Below, one piece after another: positions 5,281 to 25,285 of a DNA stretch of 64,000 bases (the stretch's first letter is position 1; every line of letters begins with the position of its first letter). The stretch lies in NCBI GenBank assembly GCA_964354805.1, contig CAYHBD010000009.1:116770-180769 (forward strand). Reading direction: 5' to 3'. The position numbers were made by a program, and so were the translations under genes. This DNA is from an uncultured archaeon (GTDB lineage: Archaea; Iainarchaeota; Iainarchaeia; Iainarchaeales; GCA-2688035). The notes beneath the pieces are model-generated. The model searched no databases, was not told where the DNA came from, and saw only the letters and a program-made list of their open reading frames with translations.

Positions 5281-5405
5281 TTGCAGGACAGCTGGGTCAA
5301 ATTTTTTAACGGCAGTAAAGCCCAAACAGAAAAAAACAAATTCAGGCTCAAATTTAAAACAATTAAATTTTTATTAAAGAAAGCGCTTTATTTAACTGGA
5401 TAAAA

Positions 5406-7136
5406 ATGAGACGCAATCCCGCATTTTTTGTAATTGCTTTTCTTGCAGCATTTTTGCTAGTGAGCAATGGCTGCTATGCCCAAGCCTTTGAGCATTCGCT
5501 CCATTTTTTTCAAATCAGGTATGGTGACAGTATGGGGGAGCCTCTTCCAGCCGGCAAAGTTGAGTTCACAATCGGGCCTAATGCATATGACGGCTTGCTG
5601 CAGTATGCGTATGTATCGTTTATGACAATTACCCCCCAGGAAAATGTTAGTAGGGGAGATGCTCCGGGTTATGTTGTTTCACTTGACCCGAGTGAAATAG
5701 ACACTGTATACAGCCAAAAAGGATACTGGCGGGGCAACGTATATCGGGTAGATAAAAATGAGCTGCAAATAGCGGATATTCAAAAAATACACAAAGAATT
5801 AAATCCAAGCGATCCGGCATTATATTTTGGCGCTGAGTTGGATGCCAGCGAGAAACCAGCCAAGCCCGCTGGCTTAACAGATGCGGATTATCAGAATGGC
5901 AAAACAATTGTTGTTCCAGCAAGATATAATAATGATGTACCGTTCCAGAGAAGGTTTTTTTTTAATTTAAATGCCGAGGCAGTGAGAGAATACATGATCC
6001 TGTACGCGTTAAAGCAAGCTGGGTCAAAAAACATTTTTGTTGATGGTGCTTTTGTTAGTAACTGCCAGATTTGTGTTAATTGCGGTTTTTATTCAGGTGG
6101 GGAATGTCCTAAAGGAGAATTAGGAGAATCAAAAGAATTGCATTATATTTCCAACGAGAGCGCTTCTAGTCAAATAATTACTTACACCTCGCAAATAAAT
6201 GGCATCCTCAACAAAATAAAGGGCAGCCGACAGATTATACTTAATGGCTTTAGTTTAAGCCAATCCCACCCATCTACCGCAGAAGTGCTTCGTTGGCTGT
6301 TGGATCATGGTTCCACTAATTTTGATGGAATAATGCTGGAAAACGGATTTTGGGGAGATGATCAGTTTTATGCCACTGATTTTTCTGCCAACGGGGGGCA
6401 TGGCAATAACTGCATTGAGCCCTGGAAGTATCAAGGATTGGGCTACAGGGATCATATATGCACTGATATCGAATATTATAGGAAGTATATATTGGAGTTA
6501 AAGAACACGAACAAGAAATTTTTGTTTGTAGCTGGAAGTGATGTTGAAGGCCACCCAGATTATTTAAAATTTGCTATAGGCAACCCTTTGATTGAAGATA
6601 TATGGCTGTGGTTTCACCTTATTGCAAGCCAAAACACCTATTTCTATATCACGCAGACTACCCAAGAGCCAATGCTAAATTACCCAGTCTACGATTCTCC
6701 TTTGGGGGTGCCCTTAGAAGAAGAGGGGCCCAGCAAAGATGGCAATACCTGGTCCAGAGAATACGAAAGAGGCACAGTTGTTTTTGACACAACAAAAGGC
6801 TGCATAAGTGAAATCAAATTCATTGAAAAAGAAATATGCGACGGCAAAGACAACGACGGCGATACCCTTATCGATGAAGACAATGTCTGCTGCAACAACG
6901 GGCAATGCGATGCTGGCGAAACAGTTACAACATGCCCGCAAGACTGCAAGTGTGGCAATACCCTATGCGATGCAGGCGAAACATTTGAAACCTGCCCAGA
7001 GGATTGCCAAGAATGCGTTGATAACGAAAAACTAGTAGGCGACTACATCCCCAAATGGAAAAGGGGAGAAATAACCATGCTTGTGCTGATGCAGAAAATC
7101 GCGGCACGAAACGCAGGAACAGGATGCCCGCAATAA
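5406..7136 (+). CDS. Secreted protein, putative glycoside-hydrolase-like passenger + Cys repeats + WKRGEI tail (family member 1)
   Basis: Signal peptide; FDGIMLEN and LGVPLE..WSREYERGTVVFD resemble GHL15-type proteins; CGNxxCDAGETxxxCPxDC repeats; shared C-terminal module. Confidence 0.7.
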   Translation: MRRNPAFFVIAFLAAFLLVSNGCYAQAFEHSLHFFQIRYGDSMGEPLPAGKVEFTIGPNAYDGLLQYAYVSFMTITPQENVSRGDAPGYVVSLDPSEIDTVYSQKGYWRGNVYRVDKNELQIADIQKIHKELNPSDPALYFGAELDASEKPAKPAGLTDADYQNGKTIVVPARYNNDVPFQRRFFFNLNAEAVREYMILYALKQAGSKNIFVDGAFVSNCQICVNCGFYSGGECPKGELGESKELHYISNESASSQIITYTSQINGILNKIKGSRQIILNGFSLSQSHPSTAEVLRWLLDHGSTNFDGIMLENGFWGDDQFYATDFSANGGHGNNCIEPWKYQGLGYRDHICTDIEYYRKYILELKNTNKKFLFVAGSDVEGHPDYLKFAIGNPLIEDIWLWFHLIASQNTYFYITQTTQEPMLNYPVYDSPLGVPLEEEGPSKDGNTWSREYERGTVVFDTTKGCISEIKFIEKEICDGKDNDGDTLIDEDNVCCNNGQCDAGETVTTCPQDCKCGNTLCDAGETFETCPEDCQECVDNEKLVGDYIPKWKRGEITMLVLMQKIAARNAGTGCPQ

Positions 7137-7295
7137 AAAAAGTGGCGAAAGAAGAGTTAAACAATATTATTAAAGACTTTTTAAACGCAATTAATTGAAA
7201 GGGGCAAAAGAAAAGGGGCAATTGCAATGCAACTCATCAGGCAGAAGCCTTTTTTGCTGATGCAAAAAAGCCTTGGGAAAGAAAGGTGCCAATAA

Positions 7296-7898
7296 ATGCG
7301 GCTGGTAAGGCAGGGAGCAGAGGCAAAGCTGTTCAGAACAGAATTTGAGGGAAAGCCCGCGCTCTTGAAGCAGCGTTTGCCAAAAGATTACAGGTGCAAT
7401 GAGTTGGATGAAAGGCTGAGGAAGGAAAGAACAACAGTGGAGGGAAATCTGCTGAGGGCCGCAAGGCAGCTTGGCATCAACACACCGCTCGTTTTCTCAG
7501 TTGAAAAGGGGAAGAGCGAAATATTAATGCAATTCATTTCCGGGCCCAGGGTAAAAGACGTTTTAAGCAAAAAGAACCTGAAAATCTGTAGTGACATTGG
7601 CAAAGCAATTGCACTAATGCACGAAAGCAATCTGATTCACGGCGACCTGACCACTTCAAATATTCTGCTTGACGGAAAAAAGTTGTTCTTTATTGATTTT
7701 GGATTGGGCTACCGCAGCAGCAAGCTGGAGGACAAGGCAGTTGATTTGCTTGTTTTCAAAAAAACATTTGAGGCAACCCACTGCAAGCTGATGCCAAAAG
7801 GCTGGGAGAAAATAATTGGGGGCTATCTGCAGGCAGGCGGCTCAGATGGCATTGTAAAACAGATGCAGAAAGTGGAGCAAAGAGTGAGGTACCATTAG
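7296..7898 (+). CDS. bud32: KEOPS complex kinase Bud32
   Basis: QGAEAKL, KxRxPKxYR, IHGDLTTSNI, FIDFGLG, EDKAVDL, C-terminal RVRYH. Confidence 0.92.
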   Translation: MRLVRQGAEAKLFRTEFEGKPALLKQRLPKDYRCNELDERLRKERTTVEGNLLRAARQLGINTPLVFSVEKGKSEILMQFISGPRVKDVLSKKNLKICSDIGKAIALMHESNLIHGDLTTSNILLDGKKLFFIDFGLGYRSSKLEDKAVDLLVFKKTFEATHCKLMPKGWEKIIGGYLQAGGSDGIVKQMQKVEQRVRYH

Positions 7899-8112
7899 GC
7901 AGCAAAAAGGCTTTGCCGAAGGCAGTTTTCCCAAGGCTTTTTCCAGGGGGAAAAAGGCTTTTTAAATGTTTTGAAAGCAAAGGTATTTACAATTTTTAGT
8001 TTTTTCTTTCCCGTTTCAGTAAGAGCGGGAAGGTAGCTGCTGAAAAGCGGTGATTCTTGGCAAAAAATGAAAATGGCTGGCAAGGTAAACCCAATCGTTT
8101 TTGGTGATTTTA

Positions 8113-8811
8113 TTGGCAAAAAAGAAGGAAGAGCAAAAAGAGGGCAGGGAAGCCAAGCGGGAAAAGGCTAGCGATAAGAAGGCTGCGAAAGAAAAGGAAG
8201 AAGAGAAACAGAAAGCTGCCGAAAAAAAGCCCAGGCAGCACAAGCCGAGGGTAACGGAATTGGAGCACAAGCTGGCTGAGGCACAGGAAAAGCTTAGGCA
8301 GAAAAAGGAGAAAGAGGCCAAAGAGGAGGGCAAAGCAGCTGAAAAAGCCACTGCTGAAAAGCCGCTGCATGCAAAGGAAGGTCTGCCTGAAAGACTGCAC
8401 AGGGAGCGGAAGCCGGGAGTTCCTGCATGGGTTGAATTAAAGCCAGCTGAGGCAGTTGAGGCAATGGTTAATCTGGCTAACGCAGGGCACAGCAGCAGCG
8501 AGATTGGAATGCTTTTGAGGGACCAGTACGGGGTTCCAAACATTAAGGCATTGTGCGGCAAGAGCATTGAAGAGATTCTTGCAGAGCACAAATTGCTGCC
8601 TGAGATTCCATCAGACCTGATGAATTTGATTAAGAGAAGCGTTAATTTAAACAAGCACCTTGCGAAAAACAGGAAGGATTTCACTGCAAAAAGGGGCCTG
8701 CAGCTCAGTGTCGCAAAAATCAGGAACCTTGTAACTTACTACAAGAGAAAGGGCAAGCTGCCAATGGACTGGCATTACAGCGAGGAAACAGCAGCATTGC
8801 TGGTGAAGTGA
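8113..8811 (+). CDS. rps15: 30S ribosomal protein S15 (uS15) with long Lys/Glu-rich N-terminal extension
   Basis: SEIGMLLRDQYGVP, PEIPSDLMNLIKR, KDFTAKRGLQL, YYKRKGKLPMDWHY; GGTGA SD before TTG 8113. Confidence 0.92.
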   Translation: MAKKKEEQKEGREAKREKASDKKAAKEKEEEKQKAAEKKPRQHKPRVTELEHKLAEAQEKLRQKKEKEAKEEGKAAEKATAEKPLHAKEGLPERLHRERKPGVPAWVELKPAEAVEAMVNLANAGHSSSEIGMLLRDQYGVPNIKALCGKSIEEILAEHKLLPEIPSDLMNLIKRSVNLNKHLAKNRKDFTAKRGLQLSVAKIRNLVTYYKRKGKLPMDWHYSEETAALLVK

Positions 8812-9001
8812 TATTAAAAAAGTGAATTAAATGGATTGTGGTTTTGTTTTGAAAAAGCAGGGCAAAGTGATTGCAAAACAGAAAGGGATTGCTGACTTGC
8901 AGCAAATGCTTTGTGCAATTGACGCAGTAATCACGAAAGAGCAGGGCAACTGAAAATGGATGCTGAAAAAGGAAAAAATGGTGGAACAAAGGTGACTGAG
9001 A

Positions 9002-9610
9002 ATGGCTGCTGAGAAAGAGAAGAAGGCAAGGGTTGTTGACAAGTGGAAGAAAAAGCAGTGGTTTGAACTGGTTGCGCCGAAAGAGTTTGATGAAAAGGTC
9101 ATTGGCGAAACAATTGCTGAAAAAGAGAAAAACCTTTTGAACAGGGTTGTGAGCGTTAATCTGGGCGACCTGAGCGGCCAGAGGCAGAGAAGGCACATAA
9201 GCATCTTGTTCAAGGTAGTGCAGGTTGAAGGAAAGAGGGCGAAAACAATTGCAATTGGCCACAGCATAAGCGGGGGCTTTGTGAACAGAATGATCAGGCG
9301 GAGAATGAGCAAGCTTGAGGTAACCCAGCAGATTGACATTGCTGAAGGAAAAAAACTGAAGGTCAAAACCATTGTTCTTTCTGTTAAAAAGCTGAGCAGC
9401 AAGCAGGAAACTGCCCTGCGAAACCAGCTGGCTGAAAGGATTGAAAAAATGTACAGGAAAAAGACAGAGCTGCAGACAATGCAGGAATTGTTTTTCGGAG
9501 TCACGGCATCCAAGCTTTTCAAGCCACTTTTAAAGATCGCGCCACTGAAGAAAATCGAAGTGATTGAAAGCAGGCTGATTGGACAAGGGGCAATTGAACA
9601 AAAGGCTTAA
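9002..9610 (+). CDS. rps3ae: 30S ribosomal protein S3Ae (eS1)
   Basis: VDKWKKKQWFELVAPKEF, IGET, RMIRRRMSK, KIAPLKKIEVIES; conserved position after uS15. Confidence 0.92.
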   Translation: MAAEKEKKARVVDKWKKKQWFELVAPKEFDEKVIGETIAEKEKNLLNRVVSVNLGDLSGQRQRRHISILFKVVQVEGKRAKTIAIGHSISGGFVNRMIRRRMSKLEVTQQIDIAEGKKLKVKTIVLSVKKLSSKQETALRNQLAERIEKMYRKKTELQTMQELFFGVTASKLFKPLLKIAPLKKIEVIESRLIGQGAIEQKA

Positions 9611-9685
9611 AGAAAAATTGAATGACTGAATTAAATTTAAATAAGTTAACGCAGGCTGATTGGATAGAACTGTCGAAGGGAAAGT

Positions 9686-10369
9686 ATGACTGAACTGCTG
9701 CATGCGGCAATAGTTCTGGCTGTTTTGTGCATTTTCTCAATTGTGAGCTATAAAAAAAAGCTGCTTGACTTTGAAGGCATTCTTGTTGCAAACATCGTTG
9801 GCTTATTCATTTTTTTGCTTGGGAACATTGTAAATTTTCTTTTCATCGTTTTCTTTTTCATAATAGCCGAAGCCAGCACTATTTTTGCAAGGAAAAACAG
9901 TAGAACAAAACATGAAGTGAGGACAACCGGAAACATTTTGGGCAACAGCGGAGCAGCTGTTCTTTCCCTCATATTCAATTTTCCTTTCGGTTTCTTTGCT
10001 GCATTGTCAGCTGCTTTGGCTGACACGCTGAGCAGCGAAATAGGCCTGCTTTCAAAAAGAAAACCTGTCCTGATAACAACACTGGAAAAAGTGCCGCACG
10101 GCACTGATGGTGGGGTTACACCGCTCGGAATGTACGCTGCGCTGGCAGGCGCTGCAGCGATTGCCTCAATCCACTTTTATTTGCAGCAAAACCTTTTGCT
10201 TTTTCTTGTTTTGATTGCAAGCGGTTTTATCGGCAGCACTGTTGACAGCTTCTTCGGCGCAGTATTCGAAAGAAAAAAAATGCTGAACAACGCCGAAGTA
10301 AACTTTTTGGGCAGCTGCGGCGGGGTTGCAGCAGGGCTTCTTTTAATCAGGCTGGCTGCAATCTTGTAA
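9686..10369 (+). CDS. DUF92/TMEM19 family membrane protein
   Basis: RTTGNILGNS, AALADTLSSEIG, LITTLEKVPHGTDGGVT, VDSFFGA, NNAEVNFL. Confidence 0.88.
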   Translation: MTELLHAAIVLAVLCIFSIVSYKKKLLDFEGILVANIVGLFIFLLGNIVNFLFIVFFFIIAEASTIFARKNSRTKHEVRTTGNILGNSGAAVLSLIFNFPFGFFAALSAALADTLSSEIGLLSKRKPVLITTLEKVPHGTDGGVTPLGMYAALAGAAAIASIHFYLQQNLLLFLVLIASGFIGSTVDSFFGAVFERKKMLNNAEVNFLGSCGGVAAGLLLIRLAAIL

Positions 10370-10436
10370 GTTTTGCCAAAGTGCCACAATCAGCTTTCAA
10401 AAGCCAGTTTGTCTGAAACCCGCCAATTTTTGCAGG

Positions 10437-11357: not shown

Positions 11358-11500
11358 TATAACACCAATTGCCCTGCAACAGTATAAAAATTTAATTGCC
11401 CCTCTTACCTTATAAATTTAATAACCATCCACCCGTTAAACAAAAAACCTGAATTAAAAAATTAAAATCTTAGAATTAAACAAAAAAAAGTGGTTTTTCG

Positions 11501-12025: not shown

Positions 12026-12076
12026 GCGAATGCCAAAAAAATAGAAAAAGTAAAAAAAATTTCCAAGGGTAATAAA

Positions 12077-12613
12077 ATGAAAAAAACCAAAAAGGAAAAG
12101 AAAAGCCATAGCGCAAAAGCAGCAAAAAAGGGTTTTGGTAAAAAAGCGGTTATTTTTCTAATCAAATTTTTTGCAATCTACGCAATAGCACAGGCGGCAA
12201 TTTTAATCGCACCGCTCGGTCCGCTGAAAGAATGGATTGCATTAATTGAAGCAAGCGCGCTTGGGCTGCAGGCGCAGGGCAACAATATTTTGTTCAACGC
12301 GCATTCTTTTGAAATCACGGCGCAGTGCACTGGCTTGATGAGCGCAAGCGTTCTTGCGGCAATCGCACTTAGCTTGAAAAAGCCCGGCCAGCGGAAAAAA
12401 ATCGTGTTAATTGCTGCAGGCGCTGTGCTGCTCTTCTTCATAAACCTGTTTCGCGTTTATCTTGTCCTGCTTGCAGCAATCGCATTCAATCCTGATGCAG
12501 CAGGAACCCTGCACGAAATAACATGGTTCGCAATGGCTGCGCTAATTATTGTAATATGGTATTATTTGACTAAAAGGATTGCCGGCGCAAAGGCGTTTGC
12601 GGAAATGCTGTAA
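12077..12613 (+). CDS. Exosortase/archaeosortase family protein
   Basis: Cys-Arg-His catalytic pattern: FEITAQCTG, INLFRVY, LHEITW; multi-TM. Confidence 0.8.
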   Translation: MKKTKKEKKSHSAKAAKKGFGKKAVIFLIKFFAIYAIAQAAILIAPLGPLKEWIALIEASALGLQAQGNNILFNAHSFEITAQCTGLMSASVLAAIALSLKKPGQRKKIVLIAAGAVLLFFINLFRVYLVLLAAIAFNPDAAGTLHEITWFAMAALIIVIWYYLTKRIAGAKAFAEML

Positions 12614-12614
12614 A

Positions 12615-12752
12615 AGATCCACGCCTAAAGGTGTGGGCTTTGTTAAGCACAATGACAACGCAGAACACGGCTGTGCTATTGGAGCAGGATTCATCCAACA
12701 GCCTTTAACAAAGGCTGGCGAAATTTTAATGCACTTTTTGCTAAAAAGTGCA
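12615..12752. other. Cluster of hairpins between convergent genes; the first resembles an IS200/IS605 terminal hairpin
   Basis: CCACGCCT-AA-AGGTGTGG (12619-12636), CAGCCTTT-AAC-AAAGGCTG (12699-12717), TGCACTTTTT-GCT-AAAAAGTGCA (12730-12752). Confidence 0.5.
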
Positions 12753-12797
12753 ATCGTTAAAGCAAATGACTTTTTCCTGCACAGGCGTAAAGCAACG

Positions 12798-14408: not shown

Positions 14409-14419
14409 ATTGTCACCAA

Positions 14420-15854: not shown

Positions 15855-16928
15855 ATGAGGCTGCAATTGGCATTTCTTCCGCCGCAAAAGGAATTGCTTG
15901 AGATAGCTTTCAGCAGGGCAAGAAAGCAGGCGGAAAAAATTGGCGGGCAAGGGACCAAGCTGCAGAAATCAAAGCAAAAAGCAACCCAAAAAATCATCAC
16001 AAGCGCGGCTTACTTCACCGAAAAGCTGCAGCAGGCTGTCCAAGGATTCCCCTCAATGCAAAAACAGCACCCTTTCTACAGGGAGCTAATTGAGGCAACT
16101 GTTGATTTGGATGCAATGCTCAGGGCCCTTGGCCAAATGAGCGCTGCCAGGAGAATAACCGACAGGCTGAAAGGGCAGTACATCGGAAAAATCAGGTCCC
16201 TTGGAAAGGGAGAGGAAAAAAAAGCGGCTGACCTTGTAAGCGGATTCTACGGCAGGCTTGCATCGCTTGCAAAAACCATGGACAAAGGGATTACAGCATA
16301 CAACGAGAACGCGAAAAAAATGCTGGAGCTGCCAAACATAAGATTTGATTTGCCGACGGCAATAATCGCAGGCTATCCGAACACAGGCAAAACAACAATC
16401 CTAAGCAGGCTCACAAAAAGCAAGCCAAAAATAGCTGCATACCCATTCACAACACAGTATCTGCAAATAGGATACCTTGTGCAAAACTATCTGGAATTCC
16501 AGCTGATTGACACCCCTGGCTTGCTTGACAGGCCTCTTGAGAAAAGAAACAAAATTGAAAGGAAAGCGATTGCTGCCCTGCGGCACCTTGCAAATGCCAT
16601 AATTTTCGTTGTTGACCCGACAACAAGGTGCGGATTTGAACTTGAAAAACAAGCGAATTTGTTCAAAGAGATTGCAGAAGAATTCAAGGAAACAAAAATT
16701 TTGATTGTCTTAAACAAAGCTGACATCGCAAGCAAAGAGGAAATGCATGCTGCGAAAGAAGCATTCGGCAAAGCTACAATAGTGGAAGGGCAAGGCATCC
16801 ACTCCAAACTGCGGGAAAAAATCGCAGAAGCGCTGAAGGAAAGAACCGAACCAACGCAGCAGGAAAAGGAGGCGGAATCAACGGAAGAAAAGAATACAAG
16901 CGAGAGCCAAGGCAAGGCAATTGGTTAA
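15855..16928 (+). CDS. NOG1-family GTP-binding protein
   Basis: HPFYRELI, GYPNTGKTT, IAAYPFTT, DTPGLLDRP, NKAD. Confidence 0.9.
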   Translation: MRLQLAFLPPQKELLEIAFSRARKQAEKIGGQGTKLQKSKQKATQKIITSAAYFTEKLQQAVQGFPSMQKQHPFYRELIEATVDLDAMLRALGQMSAARRITDRLKGQYIGKIRSLGKGEEKKAADLVSGFYGRLASLAKTMDKGITAYNENAKKMLELPNIRFDLPTAIIAGYPNTGKTTILSRLTKSKPKIAAYPFTTQYLQIGYLVQNYLEFQLIDTPGLLDRPLEKRNKIERKAIAALRHLANAIIFVVDPTTRCGFELEKQANLFKEIAEEFKETKILIVLNKADIASKEEMHAAKEAFGKATIVEGQGIHSKLREKIAEALKERTEPTQQEKEAESTEEKNTSESQGKAIG

Positions 16929-16967
16929 ATTTTTATTCAAGAAAGCGCTTATTCTAAAGGATTAAAG

Positions 16968-19121
16968 ATGAAACCCAACAGGGCGGTTTTTGCGATTGCC
17001 TTTGCAGCAGCATTCCTGCTCGCAAGCACAAATTGCTACAGCGTGCAACCTGAAAAAGTGTCTTTGGAGGGGGAAGATTTCATTTTCACTTTTTGGCCGA
17101 TTTACATAAGCGGATGCACACAGCAAAAACTGGACGACCCTAACAGTATCGCGAGCAAAAGAATGCAGGGAATTGACACAATGATGGACCCTAGTATAGG
17201 AATGACCCATGCAGGCATACATTTCGTGGCCCTTCCCACTGATGAAAATCCATGTTTAACGAATCTTAAGAATATTAAAAAATACAAGCTGGCTTTAGAA
17301 ATTAGCGCAGGGCATGGTAGATTAAATGAGGGGCGTACAGAATTAGCTGACATTAAGTGGCCAGCCGAGTATTTAAACACGGACAAGGGAAAGCAGTTTC
17401 TCAAGGCGCCCTGCCTGTGCAATAATTGCACTATCACTGAAGAGATTGCAAACAATTGGTCTGATTACGTTGACAAAGAAAGGTGCGGGGATTGGAACAA
17501 CAATCGTGCACTAGACCCTTCATATACCGGCATATTATGGCAGAATACTTTGAATAATACAAAGGATGTTGTAGCAAAGGCTCAGCCTGAAATTGTTTTA
17601 TTTGACACTGAACTATGGCTTAGGCCAGGAGCCATAGACACGGATTTTTATGGGGATACTGATTGCCAGTGCATGCTTCTTCAAAAGGCCTTTGGATATG
17701 ATGGATGCGGAACACAACCACCTTGCAACAGGTATGATTATTACCAAAAGAACCCGCTATGCTGCCAATATGACCGCTATATTTCTGCCTGGAGGCAGCG
17801 CGGGCTTGAGCTGAAAGCGGCAGTTCAATCAGTTTCTTCAGCAAAAGTTTCTTTTTACGACGAAATTCCAGCAAATGGAAGAAGATATGTTCAGACCTAT
17901 ACCGGGGCGTACTGGGATAATTATGACACAATTGGAGCAATGCCAAGCGGCGTTAGCGACTACCCATCGCCTTATTTGTACATTGTTCCAAATTTAGAGG
18001 TTTTTGAAAAAAACACGCCCTATCTTTCTGGCACAGTCCCCTGGGTCAGCTATACTCACATGATGGGGTACAGCAATTTCAATGAGCAAAAAGCAGATGT
18101 GTACTTTGATCCAAGCGTGAGCAGGGAAGCCGGGCGAATGCTAAGGGAAGCTGGGGCAAAAGGGTTCATAGTTTACCCAAACGGCCAAAACATGGAGGAA
18201 AGGACTGCTGGAGAGAAGTATTGGCAACACTATGGGAAACAGGGCTATGATTATTGGCTGGCGCATGCCAAGGAAATGATTGCAGGATTCAACGAAGAAC
18301 CAACATATGTTGAGAAAAACAAGATTAGGAACAGTGATTTTGAGGCATTCAGGGCAGTAACTAAAGAATATAAAAAGGGGGCGGGAATGTCCCATACTAG
18401 CAGCCAATTGGTTGGGCAAACACAGTTTGCGCCTGTTTTTTGGTTTTGGCAGGATTCAAGCCCAAATTACAACGACATTAATAATGCGGCATTTAGCAAT
18501 TTGGTTTATGATGACTCGCTGCAAGAATACCTTAAAGTCCCTGATGCTCAACCGTACAAGAATTTTGTTTTCGCCGATGTTAAGAGCGGAAGCGTTGCCT
18601 GGAAGCATTCAAGGAACGGCGAGCCAGGCAGCAGAACCATTTTGTCAAAAACATTCTCAATTGGGGCTGCTGAGGAAGGAAAGTATAAGTTTTCCATTTG
18701 GACAAAAGCAAGCCTTGATTCTGCTAACGGCAAAATTGAATTCTTTTTAGTGAACACAAGCACTTTGGCAGAGCAAAAACTCGGCGAAACAGGCTTTGAA
18801 ACAAGCTGGAAAGAATTCAAAAAATATGCAAACATGGCAGTTGGAGACTACAACGTAAAAATACTAATAAATGACCAAACAGGGCAAGCAATTGACATAT
18901 TTCTTGACAAAGCATCGCTGGAAAAAGCGGGGGAAGAATGCGGAAACACAATATGCGAAGCAGGCGAAACTGTCTCATGCCCGCAGGATTGCCAAGAATG
19001 CATTGATACGCCGAAATTAATAGGCTACATTAGCCAGTGGAAAAGGGGAGAAATAAGCATGCTCACGCTGATGCAAAAAATGAAGCAATATAAAGCAGGA
19101 ACAGGATGTCCGACGCAGTAA
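16968..19121 (+). CDS. Secreted protein, putative glycan-active domain + CBM-like domain + WKRGEI tail (member 2)
   Basis: Signal peptide; NKIRNSDFE CBM4/9-like start; shared Cys repeat and tail. Confidence 0.7.
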   Translation: MKPNRAVFAIAFAAAFLLASTNCYSVQPEKVSLEGEDFIFTFWPIYISGCTQQKLDDPNSIASKRMQGIDTMMDPSIGMTHAGIHFVALPTDENPCLTNLKNIKKYKLALEISAGHGRLNEGRTELADIKWPAEYLNTDKGKQFLKAPCLCNNCTITEEIANNWSDYVDKERCGDWNNNRALDPSYTGILWQNTLNNTKDVVAKAQPEIVLFDTELWLRPGAIDTDFYGDTDCQCMLLQKAFGYDGCGTQPPCNRYDYYQKNPLCCQYDRYISAWRQRGLELKAAVQSVSSAKVSFYDEIPANGRRYVQTYTGAYWDNYDTIGAMPSGVSDYPSPYLYIVPNLEVFEKNTPYLSGTVPWVSYTHMMGYSNFNEQKADVYFDPSVSREAGRMLREAGAKGFIVYPNGQNMEERTAGEKYWQHYGKQGYDYWLAHAKEMIAGFNEEPTYVEKNKIRNSDFEAFRAVTKEYKKGAGMSHTSSQLVGQTQFAPVFWFWQDSSPNYNDINNAAFSNLVYDDSLQEYLKVPDAQPYKNFVFADVKSGSVAWKHSRNGEPGSRTILSKTFSIGAAEEGKYKFSIWTKASLDSANGKIEFFLVNTSTLAEQKLGETGFETSWKEFKKYANMAVGDYNVKILINDQTGQAIDIFLDKASLEKAGEECGNTICEAGETVSCPQDCQECIDTPKLIGYISQWKRGEISMLTLMQKMKQYKAGTGCPTQ

Positions 19122-19187
19122 TAGCATCGCAGCATTTCAATCAATTAAATTTTTATTAAAGAAAGCACTTATTCTAATTGATTAAAA

Positions 19188-20639
19188 ATGAAAAAAACAA
19201 TCAGGGCAATTGCCATCTTTGCATTACTTTTGCTTGCAAGCACAAATGGCAGCAGCGCAAAAAATAATATTTACGGTAGCGGCATAGATACAAATGGCTT
19301 GATGCCAATCAATGTTGATGACACCAATGTTAGCTATCGTTTCAGGGCAGAGCATTCAGGGTTGCTTGAAAGCGTTGCATTTTACCTTGTAATCAACAAG
19401 CCGTTGTACACTCAGGGCGATGGCGGGCATTTGCTGGTTGAATTACGAACTGATGATGGCACTGGAAATCATTTTCCGTCCAACGAAGTTTTAGCATCAC
19501 ACTATATTGATAAACCAATGGATGGGCGCAGTTATCCCGGTTCTTTTGTTCCTTTACCAGGCAACCCTTCACCCTGCACTGGCAGCTCGTGCGGCGCTGC
19601 TTTCCCAAAAATTCCTTTAAATGCACAAATTGAAGAAGGAAAGCTTTACCACATTGTTTTTTCCAATACGCACGCAGACAGCAGGAATAATTGGATGTCC
19701 CTGAATCTGCTTTGGGCTGACAGCACACCAATGCAGCCCATGTTTGATGACCTTGATTTTGCACTCCTTTTTTACGACAACTTCCACAAAACATGGACAA
19801 CCAATAGCGAAACTCTTAGGACCCCAATATTAAGCGTAGATTACGTTGGTGGCAATTCGCAAGGGCAAGGCTACATAGAAGCGTGGACAAATGGCTCTGT
19901 TGCTATTGCAGGCGATAACAAAGTAAGGGAAAGATTTACTGTAAGCGGCAAGGACAGGCAGATATCAAAGGCATTTGTCAAGGTGCAAAAACCAGCTGGA
20001 ACAAATCCAGGGGATTTAACATTCAAACTACAAAAAGATGACGGCACCATTATTGAAGAAGGCAATGTTGCCTCAGCCAGCATTAGTGAAGGAAGAATGC
20101 AATGGGCAAGCTATAGCTTCCGAGAGAAACACACATTAAAAGCAGGGGAAACATATGCCCTTGTTCTTGAAGCCCCACCCGGTGACTCATATAGTACTTT
20201 TGCAATTAGGGAAGGGGGAGATGTTGGATTGAACGGGGGTTTATTCAAAGACGGCAATGCATACTATAGTGATGACGGTGGACAGAGCTGGAAGGTGATT
20301 AGATACAGCGGATTTGATTTACAATTCTATTTTGAATTATCCTGCCCAAACGGAAACTGTGAGGAAGGGGAAAATTGTTTAACTTGCCCGCAGGATTGCC
20401 CCATATGCCAGCCCCAATGCGGCAACGGCACAGCGGACACTGGGGAAAACTGCTCAAGCTGCCCTGCAGACGTGCAGTGCGAAACAGGACAAGAGTGCAT
20501 AGAAGGAACATGCACAGCAACGGAATGCATTAGGGAACCAGAGCTGCTCGGCTACATCAGCCAGTGGAAAAGGGGCGAAATAAGCATGCTCACGCTAATG
20601 CAAAAAATGAAACTATGGAGCACCGGAACAGGATGCTAA
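19188..20639 (+). CDS. Secreted beta-sandwich protein + Cys repeats + WKRGEI tail (member 3)
   Basis: Signal peptide; two beta-rich domains (LKAGETYALVL, AYYSDDGGQSW); shared tail. Confidence 0.7.
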   Translation: MKKTIRAIAIFALLLLASTNGSSAKNNIYGSGIDTNGLMPINVDDTNVSYRFRAEHSGLLESVAFYLVINKPLYTQGDGGHLLVELRTDDGTGNHFPSNEVLASHYIDKPMDGRSYPGSFVPLPGNPSPCTGSSCGAAFPKIPLNAQIEEGKLYHIVFSNTHADSRNNWMSLNLLWADSTPMQPMFDDLDFALLFYDNFHKTWTTNSETLRTPILSVDYVGGNSQGQGYIEAWTNGSVAIAGDNKVRERFTVSGKDRQISKAFVKVQKPAGTNPGDLTFKLQKDDGTIIEEGNVASASISEGRMQWASYSFREKHTLKAGETYALVLEAPPGDSYSTFAIREGGDVGLNGGLFKDGNAYYSDDGGQSWKVIRYSGFDLQFYFELSCPNGNCEEGENCLTCPQDCPICQPQCGNGTADTGENCSSCPADVQCETGQECIEGTCTATECIREPELLGYISQWKRGEISMLTLMQKMKLWSTGTGC

Positions 20640-20840
20640 CGCCAGCATAGCGCAGGCAATGAAAAGCAGGTGAAGGCTGCCCAATATAAAAATGGCTGCA
20701 AGGGGAAAAAGAATTGCAAAAACTGGGGCATTAAATTTTTATTCAAGAAAGACCTACTCTAATTGATTAAATTGAAATCCTGCATTAAAATTCCTGCAAT
20801 CGCATTCCTTGCAATGCTGTTGATCGGGGCAGCATCAGCC
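20561..20840 (+). repeat. Junction repeat copy A (tail + intergenic + promoter + signal peptide)
   Basis: Highly similar to 22706-22987; 58 bp identical (20641-20698 = 22784-22841). Confidence 0.9.
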
Positions 20841-22793
20841 CAAAAAATGAGGCATAAAGAGAAAAAGTTAATACAAGCGAATTTAGTGCTAGCAATTGGT
20901 ATAGTTTCTTTACTGATTTTTTTTAGTTTGGGAAGTATTAGAGAGCCAGTTAAAGAAGGTTTAACGAGCTTTGCCGTATCAAGTTTTGATGAAGTTGTTC
21001 CCAATTGTGGCAATAATCTTTGCGAGAGTGGAGAAATTGCTGAAAGTTGTCCTGATGATTGCGATATATGTTCTGAAGAAAAATGTGATGTGTATGCCCC
21101 TATTCAGCATAAGAAATATTTTAAGGCTGAAAAGGAAGTTTATGGTTATGACCCGCCTTTCCAACCAGCTCGAGTAACCTTTGACGCTAATAATAGGCCA
21201 TATATCAGAAAGAATGACTGTAACACTACAAATGACTTCGCGTTTCGATGTTTTACAAATCAGCTAATTATTCAAACCCTTAACAGCAGTGGAGAGTGGG
21301 AGTATTGGGATTTATCTAATATAGTAAAAACATACAAAGACCAAATGTTTAGATCCAGCACTCAAACAGATGAAAGAGTAATTATTGATTCTGACGGAGA
21401 TATGTATCTTGCAGTTGAATACAATCTTGAACCTTCTCTGCTACTTTTATATTCAAATGATGAGGGTAAAAACTGGCAGAGTTATCCTATCCAAGGGGTG
21501 TCTATGAAGTTTGAACCATGGCCAGGGCGAAATACTCCATCAATTTTAATCACAAATCGTGATAATAAGGAATTATATTTTATTATACCCCAAAAATTAT
21601 CAAATGGCACCTTAGATCTCTCCCATAAAATAAAATTATCAGATAATGCCTGGGAACCACTAAATCCTGGAGGGTATATGAGTTATTCTTTTAGTTATGG
21701 TGATCTAACTTTTTTTGTTTGGGCAGAATCAATTAGTTCTACTCCTAATGAAAACGGAACTCCATCTTACATTGCCGTGTATAATAGGACAAGCAGATTG
21801 TTAAGTCAACCATATCATATTGGAAATGGTGGAACTTATAATGGGGGGACAGGACTCACTGAGCCCCATAATCAACCAACCTTATGTTTGGATTCCAAAG
21901 GGTATATTCATGTTATCCTAGGAGGCCATAATGAGCAATTTAAATATTACAAATCAAAATATCCTTTAAATATCACAAAGTGGGAAGCACCCGTCTATCT
22001 TGGGGATCCAAATATTGATAATGTACAGAATAAACTAACTTATCCTGCACTACTTTGCGGAAAGGATGATACTTTACATCTTGCTATGCGTTCAATAATT
22101 CCTACTTATAGTTTCACTTTATCTTATACAAGAAAAAAAACAGGTCAGGGTTGGGAAAAAATTAAGCCGCTTGTTTTACCATTCAGAGCCTATTATGGAC
22201 ACTGGTATCATCAACTGAACATGGATAATAATGGCGTATTGTACTTAAATTATTGGTATCTTGCAAATAATTTATTTGATGATGAGCTTGAGGCTTATCA
22301 ACAAAAGTGGCCAGACGAAGACATTAATCTTAGCGGAGCATACAAACCAACAAACAACACATATTGGTGGAATCTCTATCCACTATACCACAGTCCAGCG
22401 ATGCTTGTTTCCTACGATAACGGAGATTCTTGGAAGCTCGCTGTTACAAGTGATTTTATAAAAGGAATGAACAAAGAAATCTGCGGAAACCAGCAATGCG
22501 AAGCAGGCGAAACCTTTGAAAGCTGCCCAACAGACTGCAAATGCGGCAATAGCGCCTGCGAAGTAGGCGAAACTTTCACAACATGCCCGGCAGACTGCAA
22601 ATGCGGCAATGCAACATGCGACGCAGGCGAAACATTCGAAACCTGCCCACGAGACTGCCCTCAAGAATGCGTTGACAACGAAAAACTGGTAGGCTACTAT
22701 ATCCCCCAGTGGAAAAGGGGGGAAATAACCATGCTGACACTAATGCAGAAAATGAGGCAATGGAAAGCTGGAACAGGATGCCAGCCAGCATAG
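20763..22793 (+). CDS. Secreted BNR-4/Asp-box beta-propeller protein + Cys repeats + WKRGEI tail (member 4)
   Basis: YSNDEGKNW and VSYDNGDSW Asp-boxes; EPHNQPTLCLDSKGYIHVILGGHN BNR_4-like motif; start possibly TTG 20772. Confidence 0.75.
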   Translation: MIKLKSCIKIPAIAFLAMLLIGAASAQKMRHKEKKLIQANLVLAIGIVSLLIFFSLGSIREPVKEGLTSFAVSSFDEVVPNCGNNLCESGEIAESCPDDCDICSEEKCDVYAPIQHKKYFKAEKEVYGYDPPFQPARVTFDANNRPYIRKNDCNTTNDFAFRCFTNQLIIQTLNSSGEWEYWDLSNIVKTYKDQMFRSSTQTDERVIIDSDGDMYLAVEYNLEPSLLLLYSNDEGKNWQSYPIQGVSMKFEPWPGRNTPSILITNRDNKELYFIIPQKLSNGTLDLSHKIKLSDNAWEPLNPGGYMSYSFSYGDLTFFVWAESISSTPNENGTPSYIAVYNRTSRLLSQPYHIGNGGTYNGGTGLTEPHNQPTLCLDSKGYIHVILGGHNEQFKYYKSKYPLNITKWEAPVYLGDPNIDNVQNKLTYPALLCGKDDTLHLAMRSIIPTYSFTLSYTRKKTGQGWEKIKPLVLPFRAYYGHWYHQLNMDNNGVLYLNYWYLANNLFDDELEAYQQKWPDEDINLSGAYKPTNNTYWWNLYPLYHSPAMLVSYDNGDSWKLAVTSDFIKGMNKEICGNQQCEAGETFESCPTDCKCGNSACEVGETFTTCPADCKCGNATCDAGETFETCPRDCPQECVDNEKLVGYYIPQWKRGEITMLTLMQKMRQWKAGTGCQPA

Positions 22794-22987
22794 CGCAGGC
22801 AATGAAAAGCAGGTGAAGGCTGCCCAATATAAAAATGGCTGTAAAGGAGAAAAAGAATTGCAAAAATGGGAGCAGTAGATTTTTATTCGAAAAAGACATA
22901 CTCTAATTGATTAAATTGAAATCCTGCGCTAAAATTCTCGCAATCGCATTACTTGCAATGCTTTTGGCTGGAACAGCGGCGGCTGCC
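22706..22987 (+). repeat. Junction repeat copy B
   Basis: See 20561-20840. Confidence 0.9.
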
Positions 22988-25078
22988 AACTGCATAGGCA
23001 ACAAGTCTGGGAATCTTATAGTTAACGGAGACCTGGAGGCAGTCACCGCAGGCATTCCTGACTGCTGGTATAAAGAGGGCTGGGAAAAAGATGGGGTGGC
23101 GCTGCCAGGAAGGGATTTGAATTGGGTTAAGGACCCTATTACAGGCGGAGACCATGGAATGGTTTTGAAAACGCAGAACACAAGCAATGGATCAGGCACA
23201 GGGCTTGCATGGCAAAATCCAGTTGCCCCTGAGCTTGTAGAGCCAAACACCTGGTATGAGCTTTCCTTCTCTTATGCCACTGAAGGCATTGAACCACTGC
23301 TTGACACAGACGGCAACATGCTACAGGACAGCGTTTGGATTGGGGCAGGCGCTATAATATGGGACGGAAACTGGAATAAGATAGATAAAGTGGATTCGTT
23401 AATTTGGGCTCAGGACCTTGAATTGGACAAGTGGGATGACAGCGCATGGGTTTACAGGACATACAAAAAAACAGGGCTTAAGCCATGGAAAGACGTAAAA
23501 AAATATTTTAAGACCCCTGCTGTGGTTGGACATATATACATATTAACATACAATTATCCAAAAGGAACAGCATATTTTGATAATTTCTCACTCAGGAAAA
23601 TAGGTTACAATCCTAATGATGTTCCATTTAAAAAATCCGGGACACTGCGCTTCCTCCAGTTTAAGGATGAGGATTTTTTCCCAATATTCCTGCACTCGTT
23701 TCCACAAAGAGGAGGGACAGATATTGGATTAAATGAGGTTAAAGAAAACGGATTCAACACAACAAACAGCTGGAACAAAACAAAAATCGAGGAGTTGGAT
23801 CTGGCAAGCGCAATAGACCTGCCTGAAATCCACAAAGGCTCTCCTGATAATCTCTCATGGTACAATGACCCTGGCCCTGGGAATTCAATTGCATACACTG
23901 GAAAGGCAGAAATTAAAACCAGAGTTTCCGAATGGAAAGATTTTGACAACCTTTTATTTTTTATAACCAGGAATGAAATTGAGTGCCACCCTGTCAGAGA
24001 CGAGTCATTTGTGCCTGATTTAGAAACATACAAAAAAATCAGCGAATATGTCAGAGGCAATGGGGCAAAAATATTCTACGGGTTCTGCGGAAGCTATTAC
24101 AATACCCCGGAAGCATATACTGGAAGCTATGATGACTTTGTAAATTATTACCATCCGCTTGCGGATATTATAAGCCATACCGCAAACCTGCCGCCGGCAT
24201 ACCCAAGCGCATACAACGAACCTCAATTAGACAAGGTCGGCATATGGACAAGGACAGACCTTTCCAGGAGCCCCGAAAAATATTTTATTGCAAGAGGCTT
24301 CAGCAGAATGGACTGGGCAAACTGGGACAGGGCAAGGGAAGCAGATGGGAGTGTTCGCAGGTACGACATATATGTACCGTTCAACCTGCAAAGGTTCCTT
24401 GTGTGGACCCAGATAATAAACGGCGCCACAGGGGCTGATTTTCTGTATACAAGCGCGATAAACCTAACTGACAAAGACTATGCCAAATACTATGCCCACA
24501 GCTGGAAGCAGATAACCGCAATATCAAAAGAGCTCTCGGAATTATACCCTGTTCTTGTTGAACCCCAGTTCCTTGACGAGTGGCAGGTTTCCGATCCAAG
24601 AGTGGAGATAATGATGAAAAAGCATGATGAAAAGATTTACCTTTTTGCAGCAAGCACGCATTATGAGGATTTGCTCAAGGAAACAATAACACTTGACAGC
24701 AAATACAACATAGCAAAAATAACGGCACTGAACGAAGTAATAAACGGGGATGTGGACAATCCCCCAACTGACAGAAGCATTGAGCTAGCTTCACCAAACA
24801 GCTTTGTTGACGACTTTGTTGGAGACGACGGCTCGCACGCATCTGCAGCAAGCCCTGGATATGCTGTGCACATTTACGAGATTGAATTAAGCGCCTGCGG
24901 CAATGGCACATGCGATTCAGGCGAAACTGTCTCATGCCCGCAGGATTGCCAAGAATGCGTTGACACGCCGACATTAATGAACCAGTACATTCCCCAGTGG
25001 AAAAGAGGAGAAATAAGCATGCTAACACTAATGCAGAAAATAAGGCAACGGAACACAGGGGAAGGATGCCCGCAATAA
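22907..25078 (+). CDS. Secreted CBM-like + putative glycoside hydrolase TIM-barrel protein + WKRGEI tail (member 5)
   Basis: GNLIVNGDLE..AYFDNFSL CBM4/9-like domain; FFPIFL..GFNT, QIINGATGADF pattern; shared tail; start possibly TTG 22916. Confidence 0.7.
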   Translation: MIKLKSCAKILAIALLAMLLAGTAAAANCIGNKSGNLIVNGDLEAVTAGIPDCWYKEGWEKDGVALPGRDLNWVKDPITGGDHGMVLKTQNTSNGSGTGLAWQNPVAPELVEPNTWYELSFSYATEGIEPLLDTDGNMLQDSVWIGAGAIIWDGNWNKIDKVDSLIWAQDLELDKWDDSAWVYRTYKKTGLKPWKDVKKYFKTPAVVGHIYILTYNYPKGTAYFDNFSLRKIGYNPNDVPFKKSGTLRFLQFKDEDFFPIFLHSFPQRGGTDIGLNEVKENGFNTTNSWNKTKIEELDLASAIDLPEIHKGSPDNLSWYNDPGPGNSIAYTGKAEIKTRVSEWKDFDNLLFFITRNEIECHPVRDESFVPDLETYKKISEYVRGNGAKIFYGFCGSYYNTPEAYTGSYDDFVNYYHPLADIISHTANLPPAYPSAYNEPQLDKVGIWTRTDLSRSPEKYFIARGFSRMDWANWDRAREADGSVRRYDIYVPFNLQRFLVWTQIINGATGADFLYTSAINLTDKDYAKYYAHSWKQITAISKELSELYPVLVEPQFLDEWQVSDPRVEIMMKKHDEKIYLFAASTHYEDLLKETITLDSKYNIAKITALNEVINGDVDNPPTDRSIELASPNSFVDDFVGDDGSHASAASPGYAVHIYEIELSACGNGTCDSGETVSCPQDCQECVDTPTLMNQYIPQWKRGEISMLTLMQKIRQRNTGEGCPQ

Positions 25079-25285
25079 AAAAAGAAATGGCTGCAAGGGA
25101 GAAAAGAAACAGCCCCCCACATGGGAAGGGGGGAGTGGCGGCAATTCCTGCAAAAGGGGCAATTGGGCTTTTGGGAAAAAAAGCGGTGTATTTAAATTTT
25201 TTGTCCCAGGTATGTTTTATTAGGTATTTTTGGCAAGTCAAGTGGATCTTAATTTAGCTTTCCATTTGGCGCTGATTTTAGGTGA

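What the first reader, a model, noticed from the sequence alone, without database searches (positions are those of the whole stretch)
5360..25165. Constant-head / variable-passenger / constant-tail secreted protein system (five 'WKRGEI' genes)
Seen: five genes (5406, 16968, 19188, 20763, 22907) share an upstream motif (TTAAATTTTTATTMAAGAAAG..., containing a TATA-like box) and related signal peptides. They also share CGNxxCxxGETxxxCPxDC repeats and a ~40-aa tail C[VI]xxxxLxxYIxQWKRGEI[ST]MLxLMQKxxxxxxGxGC. The 350-620 aa between head and tail look mutually unrelated: GHL15-like, CBM+TIM barrel, beta-sandwich, BNR-4 propeller. Four genes are tandem. Inference: this is a modular surface-display platform into which different glycan-binding or degrading domains are swapped, perhaps for host or substrate recognition in a small-genome archaeon. 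I know of no named system with this tail.
Basis: partly seen in the sequence, partly recalled or inferred. Interest (0 to 1): 0.88.

Follow-up and report, generated by a model that had tools for sequence, protein, structure and literature searches.

The report
Swappable secreted enzymes with shared tail
A tiny uncultured archaeon carries at least 16 secreted sugar-degrading or sugar-binding proteins that share one private promoter, export signal and 40-residue tail around unrelated middles, and comparison with relatives shows the middles are inserted, lost and replaced between these constant ends.

Summary
The genome is a 1.38 Mb Iainarchaeales (DPANN) MAG. It holds 16 complete genes with the WKRGEI tail, five of them in the window. 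The 21-nt promoter motif occurs 11 times in the genome, each time in front of such a gene.

Passengers have several different folds (GHL15-like, BNR_4 propeller, choice-of-anchor R, CBM plus TIM-barrel-like). The tail matches no Pfam or NCBIfam model. It is found in 132 protein clusters out of 1.84 billion, mostly in one archaeal family. It consists of two about 18-residue helix repeats closed by two conserved cysteines. Distant members keep an EF-hand/dockerin-like calcium loop.

Tails keep synonymous sites (0.67 identical codons against 0.43 expected) while the passengers are saturated. A close relative has a different passenger in the same genomic slot and three extra cassettes in a syntenic array.

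Homologues of one passenger elsewhere carry a C-terminal membrane anchor where this family has the tail. The tail is therefore most likely a non-covalent surface-docking module. This is inferred, and no partner was found. The class is a new variant of a known kind: dockerin-like or choice-of-anchor enzyme display combined with concerted evolution.

The scan had first-reader notes on this same stretch, but none on other DNA.

The parts
5363..5405 (+). Family-specific promoter (BRE/TATA-like TTAAATTTTTATT) and short conserved 5'UTR of g1
   Evidence: Exact motif match. Genome-wide, all 11 matches with <=3 mismatches lie upstream of tail genes.
5406..7136 (+). g1: signal peptide, GHL15-like passenger, MopE-like CDGxDNDxDG motif, 2 Cys modules (6888-7007), tail (7011-7133)
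   Evidence: Paralog C16_108650 passes the GHL15 cut-off (36.9 bits). Ortholog P0012 is 71% identical.
16925..16967 (+). Promoter and 5'UTR of g2
   Evidence: repeat D6.
16968..19121 (+). g2: signal peptide, passenger of no known family, 1 Cys module (18939-18992), tail (18996-19118)
   Evidence: Homologues elsewhere carry the tail, a C-terminal TM anchor, or nothing.
19145..19187 (+). Promoter and 5'UTR of g3
19188..20639 (+). g3: signal peptide, choice-of-anchor R beta-sandwich passenger, variant Cys stalk, tail (20523-20636)
   Evidence: NF041539, 33.2 bits over a cut-off of 30. The same unusual stalk is attached to a g2-type passenger in P0156.
20641..20833 (+). Junction unit, copy 1: relic tail end (20656-20689, reads Q*KAGEGCPI*), spacer, promoter (20731-20751), start of signal peptide
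   Evidence: 85-87% identical to 22784-22977 (D2 and D4).
20772..22793 (+). g4: family signal peptide, then a second hydrophobic segment (possible original N-terminus, 20847-20936), N-terminal Cys module, BNR_4 propeller passenger, 3 Cys modules (22482-22658), tail (22665-22790)
   Evidence: Tail-less stand-alone homologues end exactly where the Cys modules begin.
22784..22977 (+). Junction unit, copy 2: relic tail end (22799-22832), spacer, degenerate promoter (~22875-22895), start of signal peptide
22916..25078 (+). g5: signal peptide, CBM-like beta-sandwich, (beta/alpha)-barrel-like region, beta-sandwich passenger (group A, 3 paralogs), 1 Cys module (24896-24949), tail (24953-25075)

Best explanation
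The five genes belong to a lineage-specific family of at least 16 secreted carbohydrate-active proteins in an Iainarchaeales (DPANN) archaeon.

Each gene has the same layout. A private promoter and short 5'UTR come first, then a Sec-type signal peptide. Next is a passenger: an enzyme or lectin-like domain of independent origin. Then come 0-4 four-cysteine mini-modules that act as a stalk. Last is a ~40-residue terminal module.

That module consists of two tandem ~18-residue amphipathic helices (LxxYIxxWKxG twice). They probably fold into a hairpin stapled by the two conserved cysteines. The module appears to descend from an EF-hand/dockerin-type loop-helix repeat that has lost its calcium loop.

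Its most likely job is non-covalent retention. It would dock the exported enzymes onto the cell envelope or a common scaffold, taking the place of a membrane anchor. The cell would then display a mixed set of glycan-degrading and glycan-binding activities.

The conserved head and tail also act as stretches of DNA homology. Recombination and gene conversion between family members keep them alike. The same processes insert, delete and replace whole passengers, including genes that exist elsewhere as stand-alone enzymes.

Shown: the architecture, the family-specific promoter, the unrelated passengers, DNA-level homogenisation, and cassette differences between relatives. Inferred: the disulfide, the docking function, co-regulation, and the mechanism of exchange.
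For: Family size and specificity:
- 16 full tails in the 1.38 Mb genome.
- All 11 promoter-motif matches lie upstream of tail genes, and 14 of 16 genes share ~45 nt of promoter and 5'UTR.

Passengers:
- No mutual BLAST similarity except three small groups.
- Pfam/NCBIfam hits: GHL15, BNR_4, GH20b plus CBM4_9, NosD/beta-helix, Pec_lyase, choice-of-anchor R.

Tail:
- 132 clusters among 1.84e9 representatives; 130 C-terminal and 10 N-terminal directly after the signal peptide.
- Present in 8 of 22 genomes of the family and 11 of 196 of the order.
- AF2 model has pLDDT 82 with two helices.
- The internal duplication is obvious in P0120/P0130.
- Distant members have ADTxxDGxIxxxEL loops, with EF-hand Pfam hits at E 1e-4 to 1e-3 and hhalign against Iainarchaeales dockerins at Prob 77%, E 2e-5.

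Anchor logic:
- g2-type passengers elsewhere end in a Cys-rich stalk plus TM helix plus basic residues, or in nothing.
- The g3 passenger is a choice-of-anchor family.
- BNR_4 homologues stop exactly where the stalk starts.

Exchange:
- Identical-codon fraction is 0.67 in tails against 0.43 expected, versus 0.44-0.52 in paralogous passengers.
- Tail and head identities cut across passenger groups, for example a 92% tail between a group-A and a Pec_lyase gene.
- Duplicated junction units contain a relic tail end.
- The four-gene array is an 8.6 kb insertion between NOG1 and PolD-DP1, which are 0.4-1.7 kb apart in five relatives.
- A syntenic relative (75-93% nt) has a different passenger in one slot and three extra cassettes in another array.
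- P0156 joins a g2-type passenger to the g3-type stalk.
Against: - No receptor or scaffold was identified. No Pfam Cohesin or Dockerin_1 match exists in this genome, which is 88.5% complete.
- The full tail profile shows no significant similarity to dockerins (hhalign Prob 1.5%). The EF-hand link rests on sub-threshold hits in the most divergent members, and such loops can arise convergently.
- A two-helix hairpin gives no informative structural match.
- Synonymous conservation in the tail could partly reflect selection on the mRNA rather than gene conversion.
- All sequences come from metagenome assemblies, and repeats can cause mis-joins. Against that, the copies are 58-92% identical rather than collapsed, and the relative's contig is 216 kb.
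- Nothing shows that these genes are expressed or that the proteins stay on the cell.
Confidence: 0.6

Rival explanations
1. The tail is an export or sorting signal, analogous to the T9SS C-terminal domain or to archaeosortase signals. A dedicated machine would recognise it and perhaps cleave it off, so it would not be a docking module.
For: The tail is at the extreme C-terminus in 130 of 140 cases. An exosortase/archaeosortase-family gene lies inside the finding's span at 12077-12613 (TIGR04178, 49.7 bits).
Against: The tail has no transmembrane helix or basic cluster. Ten proteins carry it N-terminally, right after the signal peptide. The archaeosortase homologue is in 20 of 22 family genomes, against 8 of 22 for the tail, and belongs to a conserved housekeeping neighbourhood. 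All members already have Sec-type signal peptides.
Confidence: 0.12
2. The tail is itself a ligand-binding or oligomerising module. It could be a mini-lectin for substrate or host-cell glycans, or a self-association domain that bundles the enzymes. It would not attach them to the producer's own surface.
For: Two conserved Trp-Lys-x-Gly motifs and a net positive charge. The passengers are glycan-directed. The organism is a DPANN archaeon that may depend on other cells.
Against: Homologous passengers elsewhere use a membrane anchor at this position, which points to retention on the producer.
Confidence: 0.2
3. This is an ordinary paralogous gene family. Head and tail are conserved only by purifying selection on the promoter, signal peptide and a structural domain, with no ongoing exchange of passengers.
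For: In three other genera examined, the tail genes lack this head and look like whole-gene paralogs, and most tail-bearing proteins overall fall in one beta-helix group. Three passenger groups in this genome are true paralogs.
Against: Synonymous sites are conserved in the tails but saturated in paralogous passengers. Head, tail and passenger similarities are incongruent. A passenger is replaced in a syntenic slot, and cassettes differ in presence between relatives. Relic tail ends sit in duplicated junctions. Passengers are unrelated, and some have stand-alone homologues.
Confidence: 0.06

Closest known systems
Dockerin-bearing enzymes of cellulosomes (cohesin-dockerin system), including non-cellulosomal dockerins of archaea
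   Same: Many different carbohydrate-active enzymes in one genome carry the same short terminal module. That module is made of two duplicated loop-helix segments, is usually C-terminal and occasionally N-terminal. Distant members of the tail family retain a dockerin/EF-hand-like calcium loop. Canonical dockerins occur in 31 of 196 genomes of this order.
   Different: The module is about 40 residues instead of 60-70. The window's tails have no calcium ligands and have two conserved cysteines instead. There is no Dockerin_1 match and no cohesin in the genome, and the full profile is not significantly similar to dockerins. The partner is unknown.
'Choice-of-anchor' surface proteins and C-terminal sorting domains (PGF-CTERM/archaeosortase, PEP-CTERM/exosortase, LPXTG, T9SS CTD)
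   Same: The same passenger family occurs with alternative C-terminal retention devices. g2-type passengers occur with the tail, with a TM anchor, or bare. The g3 passenger is NCBIfam choice-of-anchor R. Many cargoes share one tail.
   Different: The tail has no TM segment or sortase-type tripartite signal. It is helical and only 40 residues long, and it can sit at the N-terminus. Its distribution does not follow the local archaeosortase homologue.
Multigene families under concerted evolution with conserved ends and variable middles (contingency or cassette families of surface proteins)
   Same: Constant 5' and 3' ends are homogenised at the DNA level. There are tandem arrays, relic junction fragments, and gain, loss and replacement of the middle between close relatives.
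   Different: The variable parts are not allelic variants of one protein. They are unrelated enzyme folds of independent origin. No silent-cassette archive, invertase or integrase was seen, though none was searched for systematically. The organism is a DPANN archaeon.

Membership tests
Dockerin (Pfam PF00404) / cohesin-dockerin system | Match to the Dockerin_1 model | tested here: not met
   No hit in the five proteins or anywhere in the genome. Only one distant family member (P0139) reaches E 0.098.
Dockerin (Pfam PF00404) / cohesin-dockerin system | Two calcium-binding F-hand loops (DxNxDGxIxxxD) | tested here: not met
   The window tails have C-V-D-x-x-x-L in place of loop 1 and WKRGEISM in place of loop 2, so the ligands are absent. 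A canonical loop 1 survives only in divergent members.
Dockerin (Pfam PF00404) / cohesin-dockerin system | Cohesin-bearing partner encoded in the genome | tested here: not met
   PF00963 gives no match at E<=1 in the 88.5%-complete genome.
Dockerin (Pfam PF00404) / cohesin-dockerin system | Borne terminally by many different carbohydrate-active enzymes of one organism | tested here: met
   16 genes with at least 11 passenger groups.
EF-hand superfamily | Canonical 12-residue loop followed by a helix, above the Pfam threshold | tested here: inconclusive
   Seven of 136 members hit EF-hand models, with best E values of 1.2e-4 to 4.8e-4, all below the gathering scores. hhalign of the loop-bearing subset against dockerins gives Prob 77%.
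Archaeosortase/exosortase C-terminal sorting signals (PGF-CTERM and relatives) | Signature motif followed by a transmembrane helix and a basic cluster at the extreme C-terminus | tested here: not met
   The tail is an amphipathic helix pair ending in G-x-G-C plus 0-4 residues, with no hydrophobic span. It is N-terminal in 10 proteins.
Archaeosortase/exosortase C-terminal sorting signals (PGF-CTERM and relatives) | Co-distribution with a dedicated sortase | tested here: not met
   The sortase-family gene at 12077-12613 has homologues in 20 of 22 family genomes, against 8 of 22 for the tail.
T9SS C-terminal domain cargo | An ~80-100 residue beta-sandwich CTD in a diderm bacterium with T9SS | tested here: not met
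   The model has two helices. The organism is archaeal (PolD, NOG1-type GTPase).
NCBIfam choice-of-anchor R (NF041539), g3 passenger | Score above the curated cut-off | tested here: met
   33.2 bits against a cut-off of 30, residues 238-380.
Pfam BNR_4 (PF15892), g4 passenger | Score above the gathering threshold | tested here: met
   48.4 bits against 27.3. All database homologues carry PF15892.
Pfam GHL15 (PF14885), g1 passenger | Score above the gathering threshold | tested here: inconclusive
   g1 scores 25.9 bits against 27. Its 32%-identical paralog scores 36.9 bits.
Gene family under concerted evolution / gene conversion | Conserved segments younger at silent sites than the rest of the genes, and trees of segments incongruent | tested here: met
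Integron-like gene-cassette system | Site-specific integrase plus attC-type recombination sites flanking promoterless cassettes | not tested
   No integrase was searched for. Each cassette here has its own promoter, and the junctions are ~190-300 nt of ordinary homology.

The most novel reading that the evidence does not exclude
The conserved head (promoter, 5'UTR, signal peptide) and the stalk-plus-tail form a recombination-driven gene-capture platform in an archaeon. Any enzyme gene that lands between them, including stand-alone genes of foreign origin, is at once transcribed, exported and docked on the cell. Cassettes are shuffled between loci and strains without a dedicated recombinase. 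The tail would bind an as yet unknown receptor, giving a new archaeal counterpart of the cohesin-dockerin pair.
Probability: 0.3. Interest if true: 0.85.

Novelty: new variant of a known kind. Interest (0 to 1): 0.68.

Why it matters
DPANN archaea are uncultured, and how they obtain food and interact with their surroundings is largely guesswork. Here more than 2% of a 1.4 Mb genome (16 genes of about 2 kb each) encodes one family of exported glycan-directed proteins. These share a domain that no database describes.

If the tail is a docking module, it defines a new and very small (40-residue, disulfide-stapled) protein-attachment tag and implies an unknown receptor on the archaeal envelope. 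Both would be useful handles for enrichment, for imaging, and for engineering enzyme display.

The DNA-level evidence also shows how a reduced genome can diversify its extracellular toolkit quickly. It reuses one promoter, signal and anchor frame for unrelated enzymes. This makes testable predictions for strain-level variation in metagenomes.

Tried and rejected
- Foldseek of the 47-residue tail model against PDB gave only generic helical hairpins with E>1.
- The profile of the whole tail family against PDB sequences gave only a chance CdvA helix at E 0.37.
- hhalign of the whole tail family against 26 Iainarchaeales dockerins was not significant, Prob 1.5%.
- A back-translated pattern scan of 185,579 species genomes found no tail. 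The genome search later found tails in relatives, so that scan was insensitive.
- phmmer of the g1, g2 and g5 passengers against PDB found nothing.
- The AF2 model of g5 from a 7-sequence alignment reached only pLDDT 54. It is usable for gross domain types only.
- Complex prediction with two copies of the tail gave no verdict, score 0.02. This is no evidence either way.
- Association of the tail with the archaeosortase-family gene in the window was rejected on distribution.
- A search for extra, non-tail genes behind the family promoter found none. One further head-bearing gene is cut off by a contig end.
- Literature searches for Iainarchaeota/Diapherotrites with dockerin, cohesin or glycoside hydrolase, and for choice-of-anchor, returned no description of this tail.

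Full report
**What is there**

The window lies on contig C9 (116,770-180,769) of a 1.38 Mb, 49-contig, 88.5%-complete genome. The PolD large subunit is 63-76% identical to proteins of MAGs titled 'Candidatus Iainarchaeum archaeon'. The neighbouring genes are archaeal housekeeping genes: ValRS-type synthetase, RIO kinase, S15, S3ae, CarS, SecD/SecF, NOG1-type GTPase and PolD DP1/DP2.

For g4 and g5 the start that aligns with the other heads is the second TTG, at 20772 and 22916. Each protein is built in the same order:
- a Sec-type signal peptide;
- a long middle (the passenger);
- one to four CGNxxCxxGETxxxCPxDC modules;
- the tail EC[VI]D...L..YI.QWKRGEI[ST]ML.LMQK....G.GC.

**More than chance, and bigger than the window**

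The 21-nt upstream motif has four exact matches in the window against 0.01 expected. In the whole genome it occurs 11 times with at most three mismatches, and every match is in front of a tail gene. Fourteen of 16 tail genes share about 45 nt running from a BRE/TATA-like box to the start codon. No other gene uses this combination. One further head-bearing gene is cut off by a contig end.

A tail HMM finds 16 complete tails: six on C9, eight on C16, one on C31 and one on C40.

**Passengers**

All-against-all BLASTP of the 16 middles gives three small paralog groups:
- group A, three genes at 44-51% identity, including g5;
- a GHL15-like pair at 32%, including g1;
- group C, three genes at 28-33%.

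The other eight are singletons. The five window passengers do not hit each other.

Pfam and NCBIfam assign different families and folds: GHL15, BNR_4 propeller, choice-of-anchor R beta-sandwich, GH20b plus CBM4_9, NosD/beta-helix and Pec_lyase. g5 was modelled only at pLDDT 54, but every top Foldseek hit is a CBM-bearing TIM-barrel glycosidase or an isolated CBM4/16/22. g2 has no family and no PDB relative.

**The tail as a domain**

No Pfam, NCBIfam or PDB sequence match exists.

An exhaustive profile search of 1.84 billion representative proteins finds 132 clusters. Forty have E<=1e-10. The domain is C-terminal in 130 proteins and N-terminal, directly after a signal peptide, in 10.

Across 196 genomes of the order it occurs in 11. 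Nine of these, counting this genome, are in the window's own family (8 of its 22 other genomes), with up to 14 and 9 copies in two other genera.

The broad alignment shows two tandem repeats, L..YI..WK.G and L...I..WK.G, between two conserved cysteines. P0120 and P0130 make the duplication obvious. AlphaFold2 predicts two helices with pLDDT 82. A hairpin places the two cysteines next to each other, so a staple disulfide is inferred.

The most divergent members begin with ADTxxDG[CK]IxxxEL, a canonical EF-hand/dockerin loop in which the conserved tail cysteine sits at loop position 7. Pfam EF-hand models hit seven members at E 1e-4 to 1e-3, which is sub-threshold, and Dockerin_1 hits one at 0.098. 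hhalign of this subset against 26 dockerins taken from Iainarchaeales genomes gives Prob 77%, E 2e-5 over 23 columns. The full family gives only 1.5%. I read the tail as probably derived from an F-hand repeat, but it is not a member of the dockerin family. The genome has neither Dockerin_1 nor Cohesin matches.

**What the tail replaces**

Homologues of the g2 passenger fall into three classes:
- Close relatives carry Cys modules plus the tail.
- More distant ones (P0159-P0163) carry a Cys-rich stalk followed by a hydrophobic helix and a basic cluster, that is, a C-terminal membrane anchor.
- Two (P0164, P0165) end bare.

The g4 BNR_4 passenger has stand-alone homologues at 26-36% identity. They stop at ...GGDSWRLAVTSDFVKGM, exactly where g4 continues into its Cys modules. 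The g3 passenger belongs to a family named for occurring with alternative anchors.

By this choice-of-anchor logic the tail is a retention device equivalent to a membrane anchor. It has no hydrophobic span and can sit at either end, so a non-covalent docking module fits better than a sortase-type signal.

**Head and tail behave as exchangeable DNA**

1. At residues identical between two tails, excluding Met and Trp, 67% of codons are identical over 120 pairs. Family codon usage predicts 43%. In the paralogous passengers the figure is 0.44-0.52 against 0.41-0.44 expected. The tails are therefore younger than the genes they sit on.
2. Similarities are incongruent. The tail of a group-A gene is 92% identical to that of the Pec_lyase-like gene but 76% to that of its own passenger paralog. 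The g2 signal-peptide DNA is 86% identical to that of a group-C gene. The g4 and g5 upstream regions are 87% identical although their passengers are unrelated.
3. The g3|g4 and g4|g5 junctions are 85-91% identical duplicates of about 190 nt. Each contains a relic tail end reading Q*KAGEGCPI*, of the g5 tail type, ahead of the promoter.
4. NOG1 and PolD-DP1 are 0.4-1.7 kb apart in five relatives but 8.6 kb apart here, so the four-gene array is an insertion.
5. A 216 kb metagenomic contig (JGI 3300035659) is syntenic with C16:121.9-139.6 kb at 75-93% nucleotide identity.
   - Between RFC and PheRS-beta it has a 543-residue GHL15-like tail gene where this genome has a 762-residue Pec_lyase-like one. 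Only the flanks, the promoter plus the first ~45 nt of the CDS, and 95 nt of tail (91.6%) align.
   - After PheRS-alpha it has five cassettes (group A, GH123-like, group A, beta-helix, GHL15-like). This genome has only the two group-A genes there.
   - Two genes with unrelated passengers on that contig (beta-helix, GHL15-like) have identical promoter-5'UTR sequence, and the GH123-like gene shares their MRLLVAIAFLA signal peptide.
6. P0156 joins a g2-type passenger to the unusual stalk otherwise seen on g3.

**Evolutionary frame**

Across all tail-bearing proteins there are 24 BLAST-level passenger groups. One right-handed beta-helix group holds 61 of 122. In three other genera examined, the tail genes lack the head motif of this genome, and several are whole-gene paralogs with shared N-termini.

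The one beta-helix member of this genome (C9:53,944-55,818) has its own promoter and the most divergent tail, and it has an ortholog in another genus. The simplest history is that the tail began on beta-helix enzymes. In this lineage it then spread, together with a new head, onto at least ten further passenger types.

**Rivals**

- A sortase-type or secretion signal is unlikely. There is no TM segment, N-terminal copies exist, and the archaeosortase-family gene at 12077-12613 is in 20 of 22 family genomes as part of conserved synteny.
- A direct glycan-binding or oligomerising role cannot be excluded. The homodimer co-fold gave no verdict (listed under Tried and rejected only).
- 'Ordinary paralogs' is contradicted by points 1-6 above.

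**Known or new**

I found no paper describing the tail. The principle is known from dockerins, T9SS CTDs and choice-of-anchor proteins: diverse enzymes share a terminal retention module. Concerted evolution of multigene families is also known.

Four things are new:
- the domain itself;
- its occurrence in DPANN archaea;
- the private promoter and signal head;
- direct evidence that unrelated enzyme genes are swapped between constant ends.

I class it as a new variant of a known kind, with interest 0.68.

First-reader notes e1-5623711, e1-5623720 and e1-1069355 cover this same stretch. The junction-repeat lead in e1-5623720 was followed up and confirmed here.

Noticed in passing
window 12077-12613 (+): This 178-residue ORF is an exosortase/archaeosortase-family protein (TIGR04178, 49.7 bits) that reaches no subtype cut-off (ArtD/ArtE/pacearchaeosortase-like short form). 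It sits next to CDP-archaeol synthase. Homologues occur in 20 of 22 genomes of the family. Its cognate sorting signal in this genome was not looked for.
   Followed up: partly
window 20847-20936 (within g4): After the family signal peptide, g4 continues with MRHKEKKLIQ plus a 19-residue hydrophobic stretch. This looks like a complete second N-terminal signal or anchor with its own ATG. It may be the passenger's original start, left behind when the head was grafted on, or it may be the true start.
   Followed up: partly
window 20656-20689 and 22799-22832: These are two identical 34-nt relics of a tail end (TGG changed to TGA, reading Q*KAGEGCPI*). They lie in the intergenic junctions, downstream of the functional tails of g3 and g4.
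   Followed up: yes
G000:C40:8334-8712 (own genome, outside the window): A further gene with the family promoter and a signal peptide (LKHAPAIMATVFAFAILITY...) starts right after tail gene C40:6956-8266 and is cut by the contig end. Small contigs C31 and C40 end close to family genes, so more copies may be unassembled.
   Followed up: no
Genomes of the same family: Within the family, canonical Dockerin_1 domains (4 of 22 genomes) and the tail (8 of 22) almost never co-occur; only G077 has both. Numbers are small and the genomes are related, so this is only a hint that one module may substitute for the other.
   Followed up: no
window 36638-38608, 43751-50416, 54430-56796, 59698-62415, 62510-64000 (all -): The right half of the window encodes several other large predicted surface proteins: NHL propeller, a 2221-residue protein with CarboxypepD_reg domains, PKD, VWA, and PKD/Ig. 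A prepilin-type peptidase gene lies at 42665-43735. None carries the tail.
   Followed up: partly
window 19090-19170, 16918-16973 and equivalents: The conserved segment between the TATA-like box and the start codon contains an imperfect palindrome, TAATTGATTA. This could be an operator for a shared regulator. It is not strictly conserved in g1 and g2.
   Followed up: no
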